Shown: piece after piece, positions 1,261 through 8,759 of the stretch | Numbering within the stretch: the first letter of the stretch is position 1 | Layout: every line of letters begins with the position of its first letter | Origin: Octopus sinensis | Lineage: Eukaryota | DNA: 20,858 nt | Assembly (NCBI RefSeq): GCF_006345805.1 | Contig: NW_021823880.1 | Span: forward strand, 1-20,858 | Direction: 5' to 3' | Translations under genes and position numbers: made by a program | The notes under the pieces: model-generated | Databases searched by the model: none | What the model was told of the DNA's origin: nothing | What the model saw: the letters and a program-made list of their open reading frames with translations, nothing else

Positions 1261-3186
<1,926 letters not shown>

Positions 3187-4028: not shown

Positions 4029-4232
4029 TCTTTCTGCTATAGGCACAAGGCCTGAAATTTTGGAGGAGGAGATAGTCGATTACATCGACCCCAGTGCGTA
4101 ACTGGTACTTATTTCATCGACCCCGAAAGGATGAAAGGCAAGGCCGACCTCGGCGGAATTTGAACTCAGAACGTAGCGGTAAACGAAATACCGCTCAGCA
4201 TTTCGCCCGGCATGCGAACGATTCTGCCAGCT
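4029..4232 (-). mobile_element. tRNA-derived SINE family A, tail type 1, in tubulin intron 2
   Basis: A box TGGCAGAATCG, B box GAGTTCAAATTC, body GCCTTTCATCCTTTCGGGGTCGAT. TSD ATTTCTYATAAATAAT at 4013-4028 and 4235-4250 (15/16). Confidence 0.88.
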
Positions 4233-4446
4233 TTATTTCTTATAAATAATGAATGGGTGCTGAAACGTACTTTAACTCTCTCTTAGAAGTTCAACAACTT
4301 GTTATAAGAGAGAAAAGGATGCACATTGCATGTAACGAAAATAATGTATTTGGAAGCATCAGTTCCTATGATTAACTATAATTCAAAGTTTACAGAGATG
4401 TACTTGCATAGCAAGTGACCTGATCTGAGATCGTGTGCTGGAACGA

Positions 4447-4632
4447 AAACAATTGCAGGGTGGAAGGTGTTTATAAGCCATTTAAGCAACACACAAGATC
4501 CGTTAAATTCACTTCAACATTTAAATCTAATTTATCAAAATATTTTCGTCGCTTTGAGACCGCGACCTGTTCACTGACAAAATTCCGTGCTGCATCTTGG
4601 AATTATAAACACCTTCCACGCTGCAATTGTTT
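4447..4632. repeat. 30-bp inverted repeat (4447-4476 / 4603-4632) enclosing the hammerhead-like motif
   Basis: AAACAATTGCAGGGTGGAAGGTGTTTATAA matches the reverse complement of TTATAAACACCTTCCACGCTGCAATTGTTT at 29/30 positions. Confidence 0.9.
4531..4581 (-). ncRNA. Minimal type-I hammerhead ribozyme-like fold, G3:C8 core variant
   Basis: Minus strand reads TTTGTCA-GTGAACA-G-GTCGC-ggtctcaaa-GCGAC-GAAA-ATATT-T-TGATAAA. Stem I is 7 bp (one GU), stem II is 5 bp, and stem III is the palindrome AATATT. Confidence 0.6.
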
Positions 4633-4716
4633 AATTTAGAGGTTGTCTCGATTTAATTGCTATAAGTTAAAGTTTGTCCAGGTTTGACCCTAAGAAATTG
4701 TGGCAAGCCAACTTAC

Positions 4717-4939
4717 CGATGACCGTAGGTTCCAGATCAACGAAAACGGCCCTTGGGACGTGTTTTCCTCCACCAGTTTCGCTGAAAAACGTGTTAAACG
4801 AATCATCGCTGCCTGTTTGTGACCTCAGATCAGGTATTTGACCATTTTGCTGGATACAATGTTCCAAACAATACAGTTCCCAGCATGCATTACCGATTTG
4901 AACTCCTGCCTGTCCGATGTGGATACTGATACACTCACG
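4717..4939 (-). CDS. TUBA: Alpha-tubulin exon 2 (codons 2-76)
   Basis: [27 protein letters not shown]...[16 protein letters not shown]. Acceptor TTTCCTTGCAG| ends at 4940 and donor G|GTAAGT starts at 4716. The 223-nt length matches the conserved animal alpha-tubulin exon 2, and the phase fits exon 3. Confidence 0.97.
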
Positions 4940-8130: not shown

Positions 8131-8356
8131 GAAGAAACGATCGAATCAGAAAGAAAAAGGCGCTTATACATTTGTAGTTGTTTTTCTTTTGCGAAGGGAC
8201 GCTACTCTAAATTATCTTTTCTTTATTACTTCCCTTGAAAATAAATTTATTTTATTTTATTTTTTTATTCAACTGAATTTGCTTGGCAGACGCCATTAGA
8301 AAAACTTATATCTATTTGCAAAGGAGCCTTCACTTTCATCGCTACCTGGTGGTTAC

Positions 8357-8399
8357 CGCCCGTTGACGAGGGACAACAATCCCGAAACTAGTTCGAGCG
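8357..8399 (+). ncRNA. Minimal type-I hammerhead ribozyme-like fold (Penelope-type)
   Basis: CGCCCG-TTGACGA-GGGA-caacaa-TCCC-GAAA-CTAGT-T-CGAGCG. Stem III is the palindrome ACTAGT, and stem I extends imperfectly out to 8313/8444. Confidence 0.7.
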
Positions 8400-8759
8400 T
8401 ATCACTCAGGCTTGCGAGGAAGGGATGGCCTCCCTTTGCAAATACTCCAAGGACACAGATATTGTGTCTAGAGCCAGCTAGAGACGAAGATCTCTTGGGA
8501 CTATAAAGCTACAGTAACACCCCCTCCCCAATGTGGTTAGCCATGATAAGATGGCTTCTATACTTTACATTATCGAGCGATTACTGTTTCAATCTCATTC
8601 TGAGATTTAATTATGCTTATTGTAAATTGTATTAGTGAAATTCTATCGCAAATTAACAAAACTCAGTGTACGTCTTTTAAAAATAGATTTAGAAGTCGGA
8701 TGGTTAACTATAATTGCGTTTTTTAAACTGCTTAAATTGTTTGTTTTAACTTCAGGTGT

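What the first reader, a model, noticed from the sequence alone, without database searches (positions are those of the whole stretch)
4531..4581. Hammerhead-like ribozyme with a swapped G3:C8 core, sense-oriented in tubulin intron 2
Seen: the minus strand folds as a type-I hammerhead, with stem I TTTGTCA/TGATAAA, core GTGAACA, one extra G, stem II GTCGC/GCGAC, GAAA, palindromic stem III AATATT and a UUU cleavage triplet. Established: the canonical core is CUGANGA, where C3 pairs with G8, and minimal hammerheads with palindromic stem III are typical of Penelope-like elements and are thought to act as dimers. Here both positions are exchanged, which keeps the pair and means CUGANGA searches would miss the motif. 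It lies about 135 nt downstream of the exon 2 donor on the transcribed strand. Inference: this could be a non-canonical ribozyme repeat family that cleaves or structures the pre-mRNA. The UUU triplet and the extra G argue for weak activity.
Basis: partly seen in the sequence, partly recalled or inferred. Interest (0 to 1): 0.8.

Follow-up and report, generated by a model that had tools for sequence, protein, structure and literature searches.

The report
Swapped-core hammerhead of Penelope-like retrotransposon
The motif is the end piece of a jumping gene with about 7,000 copies in this genome, whose lineage has swapped two paired letters in the core of its hammerhead RNA (C-G to G-C); it likely still cuts slowly for the element's own use, and its place in a tubulin intron is probably an accident.

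Summary
The fold is real (4531-4581, minus strand) but is not a tubulin element. It is the hammerhead of a solo pseudo-LTR of a young Neptune-type Penelope-like retrotransposon. ORF-bearing copies (RT plus GIY-YIG-type nuclease, open frames up to 1,042 codons) carry the same motif about 1 kb behind the ORF. The core pattern matches 6,951 places with G3:C8 and 455 with G3 plus another letter at 8. G3:C8 is the majority in four subfamilies of one lineage; sister families have C3:G8 or U3:G8, with compensatory stem changes. Between old and young subfamilies core and stems differ at 1 of 30 columns, downstream at 28 of 92. Inserted copies, this one included, decay neutrally. The extra G is a clade trait and U17 is common in such hammerheads. 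Cleavage is untested. The lab double mutant C3G/G8C is known to be partly active; I found no natural G3:C8 in the papers I could search, but three key papers were not held. This scan noted G3-C8 hammerheads behind Penelope-like RTs in two other genomes. The tubulin is intact and normally spliced; a host role is unlikely.

The parts
4531..4581 (-). Type-I minimal hammerhead fold with G3:C8 core (G3 4574, C8 4569, extra G 4567, predicted cut 4538/4537; private C>T at 4534 makes a G-U pair in stem I)
4392..4597 (-). Solo pseudo-LTR plus tail of the Penelope-like element; starts at AGATG (likely transcription start), ends at the long 3' end CATCTC(C/T)GT
4392..4481 (-). First 30 codons of the element's ORF (MAYKHLP...), the 'tail'; in partial-tandem locus L349 the same frame runs on into the RT ORF
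4603..4632 (+). Inverted 5'-truncated fragment of the element (copy of 4447-4476), ending at the short 3' end; Penelope-type insertion structure
4633..4659 (.). 27-nt filler of unknown origin between the inverted fragment and the upstream duplication
   Evidence: no match over 16 nt in the loci held
4660..4675 (.). Probable target-site duplication, upstream copy (14 of 16 identical)
4376..4391 (.). Probable target-site duplication, downstream copy
4717..4939 (-). Host alpha-tubulin exon 2 (context only)
1261..2390 (-). Host alpha-tubulin exon 3 to the stop codon, open frame (context only)

Best explanation
This is the hammerhead motif in a solo terminal piece (pseudo-LTR) of a Penelope-like retrotransposon whose lineage carries a G3:C8 core pair in place of C3:G8; it is likely a slow ribozyme that would cut only as a dimer or with the element's protein, serving the element and not the tubulin gene. 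Shown: family, autonomous partner, architecture (AGATG - hammerhead at +17 to +67 - ATG at +117 - two 3' ends near +150 and +206), lineage-level conservation and 3:8 covariation. Inferred: a promoter in the pLTR starts a capped RNA at AGATG; the RT primes at nicked AT-rich or (TA)n DNA and begins inside the RNA at one of the two tail sites, so copying back to the cap gives the thousands of 150-206-nt solo copies, all made from uncut RNA. Position 8 acts through its 2'-OH, so a G3:C8 pair keeps the active geometry at lower rate. The window copy is a dead insertion in sense orientation.
For: Family: 1,716 first-look candidates, best 40 scored at 88-96% identity; 6,951 G3:C8 vs 455 G3+other matches, reversed-pattern control 0. 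Partner: 793- and 1,042-codon open frames with YVDD, CX3CX2C linker and VY..C..C..YIG-R-H-E-N nuclease motifs; homologues hit RVT_1 (4 of 17) and GIY-YIG (3 of 17). Of 30 loci picked by protein match, 25 have the element downstream and all 25 are G3:C8. Penelope hallmarks in 49 of 50 pattern-picked loci: long end 25, short end 17, other 7; inverted partner 20; (TA)4 flank 18; duplications of 8+ nt in 10 of 21 parsed copies vs 24 of 420 cross pairs. Covariation: 3/8 = GC in A1 28/29, A2 25/25, E 16/25, D 12/21; CG in C 27/30; UG 16, CG 3 of 20 in B. Stem II pair G-C to A-U in C; stem III stays self-complementary (AAUAUU, AAUU, AGAUUU, AGGACU). Formal count: 14 of 32 rows change both sides of 3:8; slid controls far lower. 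Old subfamily D vs A1: 1/30 vs 28/92 columns differ, Fisher p=0.002. Tree: G3:C8-linked ORFs form one clade (96) beside the C3:G8 family (100); two outgroups are C3:G8. Extra G before AGATG in 16 of 28 solo copies vs 14% background. Papers: C3G/G8C partly restores cleavage of a PLE hammerhead, which is protein-assisted, and uncut RNA is what inserts (PMC11167929); PLE hammerheads are weak dimers (PMC4209133).
Against: No cleavage was measured and no RNA ends could be seen (only contigs). Among inserted copies the core is not better kept than downstream sequence in A1 (0.034 vs 0.028), E (0.11 vs 0.06), D (0.198 vs 0.138) or B (0.138 vs 0.138). The swap is one evolutionary event, so thousands of copies are not independent support, and the shuffle control ignores relatedness. 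G is twice as common as A at position 8 among departures (36 vs 18 of the first 100 listed), two ORF-linked copies are G3.G8 (L206, L209; derived), and subfamily E multiplied with a hairpin that covers the 5' half of the motif: pairing or cutting may not be needed to transpose. Conserved stems could reflect protein binding or promoter sequence. The ORF itself gets no Pfam hit and no PDB sequence hit. No ORF was tied to subfamily D or family B. The published consensus has H, not G, at the extra position.
Confidence: 0.7

Rival explanations
1. Same element, but the motif no longer cuts: the fold is kept as a protein-binding, promoter or translation element, or cutting is dispensable and the swap was fixed by drift.
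For: All solo copies come from uncut RNA; cleavage is not needed for insertion in vitro (PMC11167929); G3.G8 copies and hairpin-blocked subfamily E exist; G8C lowers rate 1e5-fold and C3G restores only part (PMC8495972, passage).
Against: U4 G5 A6 A9 G12 A13 A14 A15.1 U16.1 are the majority letters in all six families while N7, loop II and downstream sequence change. Restoring the 3:8 tertiary pair by a second transversion is what catalysis requires.
Confidence: 0.22
2. This copy is co-opted by the host and cuts or structures the alpha-tubulin pre-mRNA.
For: Sense orientation, 135 nt below the donor; stems fold in the intron context; the gene is transcribed (spliced contigs in X1 and X7); intronic hammerheads exist in mammals (PMC3088659, passage).
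Against: One of ~7,000 copies, so intronic sense copies are expected; private C>T in stem I; no extra conservation; monomer with a 2-bp stem III and no same-strand partner; exon 2 is joined correctly to both neighbours.
Confidence: 0.04
3. A MITE-like DNA element or chance hairpin that only resembles a hammerhead.
For: 30-nt inverted repeats flank most of the window copy; local fold z -0.98; no Rfam hit.
Against: The inverted arm is a truncated second copy whose length differs between loci; the unit is the end of an RT-nuclease element; sister families have the canonical core in the same scaffold.
Confidence: 0.02

Closest known systems
Minimal type-I hammerheads of Penelope-like elements (Cervera & de la Pena 2014, PMC4209133; main text parts 1-2 of 4 and supplement file 2 parts 1-2 of 3 read)
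   Same: Type I, in the pLTR, extra nucleotide between 9 and 10.1, G10.1-C11.1, short palindromic stem III, NUH site with U17, mostly solo copies, opposite-strand pairs 100-700 bp apart.
   Different: Core GUGANCA. Of the 56 representatives in Fig. S3, 53 are C3:G8, 2 U3:A8, 1 U3:G8, none G3:C8 (my count). Extra nucleotide is G (consensus H; G in 1 of 56).
PAc Poseidon element of Anolis (Frangieh et al. 2024, PMC11167929; parts 1-2 of 4 read)
   Same: Hammerhead at the ORF start region, two RT start sites inside the ORF giving an optional tail, AT-rich targets, uncut RNA inserted; C3G/G8C double mutant partly active.
   Different: There G3:C8 is an engineered control; here it is the natural state. 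ATG lies 57 nt after the cut site, tail about 55 nt, linker zinc-finger present.
Neptune-type EN+ Penelope-like elements (Craig et al. 2021, PMC8557442; passages and supplement search)
   Same: C-terminal GIY-YIG-type nuclease with two internal cysteines, CX2-5CxxC linker, DK motif, (TA)n preference, inverted truncated copies, tail at one end.
   Different: DKG reads DKS; about 1 kb microsatellite-rich 3' UTR; clade not placed against reference Neptune and Nematis sequences.
Non-LTR retrozymes (bioRxiv 10.64898/2026.07.22.740005, part 1 of 5 read; PMC7229834, listing only)
   Same: Short non-coding hammerhead-bearing units derived from PLE pLTRs.
   Different: Those are head-to-tail tandem arrays; these are dispersed solo or inverted pieces of an autonomous element.

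Membership tests
Hammerhead ribozyme (type I, minimal) | Three-way junction with stems I and II and short or dimer-forming stem III | tested here: met
   self-complementary stem III in all families
Hammerhead ribozyme (type I, minimal) | Literal core CUGANGA | tested here: not met
   GUGAACA; no Rfam hit
Hammerhead ribozyme (type I, minimal) | Watson-Crick pair between positions 3 and 8; U4 G5 A6 A9 G12 A13 A14 kept | tested here: met
Hammerhead ribozyme (type I, minimal) | A15.1-U16.1 pair, NUH site, G10.1-C11.1 | tested here: met
   UUU site in A1, A2, E and D
Hammerhead ribozyme (type I, minimal) | Self-cleavage at position 17 | not testable with these tools
   no raw RNA reads offered
EN+ Penelope-like element | Single ORF with RT and C-terminal GIY-YIG nuclease | tested here: met
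   motifs read; homologues at 33-51% identity hit RVT_1 and GIY-YIG; no direct Pfam hit for the ORF itself
EN+ Penelope-like element | pLTRs from partial tandems, inverted 5'-truncated copies, optional tail | tested here: met
EN+ Penelope-like element | Hammerhead motif in the pLTR | tested here: met
   25 of 25 ORF-linked ends
Neptune clade | CX2-5CxxC linker and (TA)n targeting | tested here: met
   CQSNCAVC; (TA)n flanks. The linker is shared with Nematis.
Neptune clade | RT phylogeny with named reference elements | not tested
   no named references held; tree uses local and unnamed relatives only
Non-LTR retrozyme | Head-to-tail tandem repeats each with a hammerhead | tested here: not met
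   loci are solo or inverted; same-strand pairs seen were 1-3 kb apart with their flanks; no genome-wide tandem search was run
Domesticated intronic hammerhead (RECK/C10orf118 type) | Single-copy, conserved beyond neutral flanks, stable monomer | tested here: not met

The most novel reading that the evidence does not exclude
G3:C8 is a working natural third code for the hammerhead core, fixed once in an active retrotransposon lineage because a slower ribozyme spares the capped RNA that is the insertion template. Position 3:8 would then be a rate dial in Penelope-like elements (C:G, U:A, U:G and G:C all occur in this one genome), and CUGANGA-based surveys would have missed a whole set of PLE hammerheads, including some elements now called hammerhead-less.
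Probability: 0.3. Interest if true: 0.72.

Novelty: new variant of a known kind. Interest (0 to 1): 0.5.

Why it matters
The C3-G8 pair is the hallmark of the active hammerhead structure. Its inversion is a standard lab rescue control, and natural covariation was reported only to U3-A8 in the papers I could read. Here the inversion is carried by a young, high-copy element next to sister families with the canonical pair, which gives a natural matched set for asking what PLE hammerheads are for, an open question. Descriptors and Rfam models miss about 7,000 motifs in this genome. The copy ends also give genomic support for internal RT initiation on capped, uncut RNA.

Tried and rejected
Rfam: no hit on the motif at E<=10 or on four family loci at gathering score. 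Pfam GIY-YIG search of the genome found other PLE families without this end; the partner was found instead by walking 5' from extended copies. MITE reading rejected. G3.G8 as a large subfamily or ancestral intermediate: the 13 such loci examined among 30 were scattered over subfamilies, and the ORF-linked pair is derived. The upstream CTAAC...TTTCTYAG looks like a splice acceptor, but the extra G at -1 fits a cap better; not resolved. 'U17 co-evolved with G3' is only weakly supported (PMC3884650 passage: G3-C8 does worse with C17; but U17 is common and family B has it with U3/C3). PDB sequence search empty. Seven ORF loci at 63-70% identity showed no element end except a piece in L216. Not-in-print searches: 'G3-C8' 1 paper, engineered; C3G+G8C 2 papers, engineered; 'G3 C8' 0; 'G3C8' 0; and the octopus/cephalopod searches showed no natural case in listings or passages read. 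Lunse et al. 2017, Przybilski & Hammann 2007 and Hammann et al. 2012 were not held and could report one; file 1 of the PMC4209133 supplement and bioRxiv supplements were not seen.

Full report
Observation. The minus strand at 4581-4531 reads as described, with the predicted cut at 4538/4537 and the exon 2 donor 135 nt upstream. Stems I and II dominate the fold alone and in intron context. A descriptor with any Watson-Crick 3:8 pair gives 1 hit in the window against 0.01 in resampled windows. Rfam misses it. The host gene is an intact alpha-tubulin; contigs of two runs guessed to be RNA cover exon 2 without differences, and in X1 the loose ends are exon 3 and upstream sequence, i.e. normal splicing.

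What the repeat is. The stretch 4597-4392 is a dispersed repeat: 1,716 candidates, the best 40 scored at 88-96% identity, with sharp ends. A pattern for the scaffold has 6,888 matches and 0 in the reversed control. Copies have two 3' ends about 55 nt apart, often a truncated inverted copy in front, and often (TA)n behind: of 50 pattern-picked loci 49 aligned, with 25 long, 17 short and 7 other ends, 20 inverted partners and 18 (TA)4 flanks. Exact duplications of 8 or more letters flank 10 of 21 parsed copies (of 29) against 24 of 420 cross pairs. The window copy has the long end, a 30-nt inverted fragment that stops at the short end, and a 14-of-16 duplication.

The autonomous partner. 516 copies keep native upstream sequence. 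[quoted passage not shown] Pfam does not hit this ORF, but 4 and 3 of 17 aligned homologues hit RVT_1 and GIY-YIG. These are the marks of Neptune-type Penelope-like elements given in PMC8557442 (passages). Of 30 loci chosen by protein match alone, 25 have the element end downstream and all 25 are G3:C8. Of 12 loci at 79-87% nuclease identity, 9 reach the motif: 6 G3:C8, 2 G3.G8, 1 deletion; the window's loop type lies behind this older group (up to 93% identity). In the partial tandem L349 the tail runs straight into the ORF, whose ATG lies inside the repeat; the window copy encodes the same first 30 codons. So the unit is AGATG, hammerhead, ATG at +117, and ends near +150 and +206. This matches the anole element, where RT starts at two sites inside the ORF and inserts uncut RNA (PMC11167929). 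16 of 28 solo copies have an extra G before AGATG (background 14%); reading this as a copied cap rests on recalled knowledge of other retroelements.

Is the swap real covariation? With G3 fixed, position 8 is C in 6,951 matches and another letter in 455. In the first 100 I counted 80 G:C, 12 C:G, 2 U:A, 1 U:G, 5 G.G and no C.C. Six families were sampled by BLAST or protein: A1 28/29, A2 25/25, E 16/25 and old D 12/21 (of 25 loci) are G:C; C is C:G in 27/30; B is U:G in 16 and C:G in 3 of 20. All share the extra G and the other core letters; stem II changes G-C to A-U in C; stem III changes length and letters but stays self-complementary. On 36 hand-picked copies (5-7 per family, chosen for being intact), 14 of 32 distinct rows change both sides of 3:8 and slid controls fall far lower (relatedness inflates the shuffle control). 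Between D and A1 majorities, 1 of 30 core and stem columns differs (a CpG site) against 4 of 10 at N7 and loop II and 28 of 92 downstream (p=0.002; A2 and E similar). Family C motifs lie 360-743 nt behind related ORFs in 7 of 11 loci. In a tree of the C-terminal 272 residues the G3:C8-linked ORFs form one clade (96) beside family C (100), and metagenome relatives L332 and L336 are C3:G8. The swap is therefore derived, happened once, and was kept through several subfamilies.

Results against. Among inserted copies the core is not better kept than downstream sequence in four of six families, so no single copy, the window's included, shows selection; the window copy has a private C>T in stem I. 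G at position 8 is twice as common as A among departures (36 vs 18 of 100 listed), two ORF-linked copies are G3.G8, and subfamily E spread with a hairpin over the motif. Cleavage is unmeasured. One origin is one data point.

Mechanism. Most likely (0.7) a slow, dimer- or protein-dependent ribozyme of the element. Position 8 contributes its 2'-OH and the 3:8 pair positions it (PMC8495972 and PMC6155905, passages); C3G/G8C partly restores cleavage in a PLE hammerhead; PLE hammerheads are weak even as dimers. Cutting at +60 would remove the cap from the element's mRNA or free it from read-through RNA, while uncut RNA is what gets inserted; a slower core would cost little. The rival is a non-cutting structural relic (0.22). 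A host role is unlikely (0.04).

Novelty. Known kind: PLE minimal hammerhead. Natural covariation to U3-A8 is reported (PMC3088659 passage; PMC4209133); none of 56 published representatives is G3:C8. My searches showed only engineered G3-C8; three key papers were not held, so priority is not secure. Two earlier notes of this scan describe G3-C8 motifs with an extra nucleotide behind Penelope-like RTs in other genomes; I did not test them, and they are leads, not support. Verdict: new variant of a known kind, interest 0.5.

Noticed in passing
window 8345-8415 (+): A second, canonical-shaped type-I hammerhead (Rfam HH9, 31 bits, below gathering score; core UUGACGA, GUU site), antisense to the tubulin gene.
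   Followed up: partly
L277-L301 (subfamily E): A unit multiplied with a fixed inverted fragment that can form an 18-bp hairpin over the 5' half of the hammerhead, and a shared 3' extension. It may be non-autonomous or part of a larger repeat.
   Followed up: partly
L333 ~2490-2540, L339 2810, L332 4973: Related elements from metagenomes show more core variants behind their ORFs: U3:A8 with C9 (L333, read by eye), an A3:U8-like core with palindromic ACAUGU but almost no stem I (L339), and U15.1:A16.1 (L332). Single copies.
   Followed up: no
L349:3926-4400; L347: Partial tandem that shows the ORF start inside the pLTR; L202 has a different 5' part at the same point.
   Followed up: partly
L122-L151, upstream of AGATG: Native upstream sequence reads like a branch point, pyrimidine tract and AG acceptor ending at the element's common 5' end; Drosophila Penelope has an intron ending at helix I.
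   Followed up: no
L082-L088: Other young Penelope-like families with 775-883-codon RT and GIY-YIG frames; some have a hammerhead-like UUGAUAA core (U3:A8) behind the ORF.
   Followed up: no
window ~12314-13201 (+): Broken transposase-like frames that look mariner-like (name recalled, not searched).
   Followed up: no
window 4074-4232, 15341-15683, 16421-16587, 18668-18826, 20098-20440: Several copies of another short dispersed repeat, probably a SINE.
   Followed up: no
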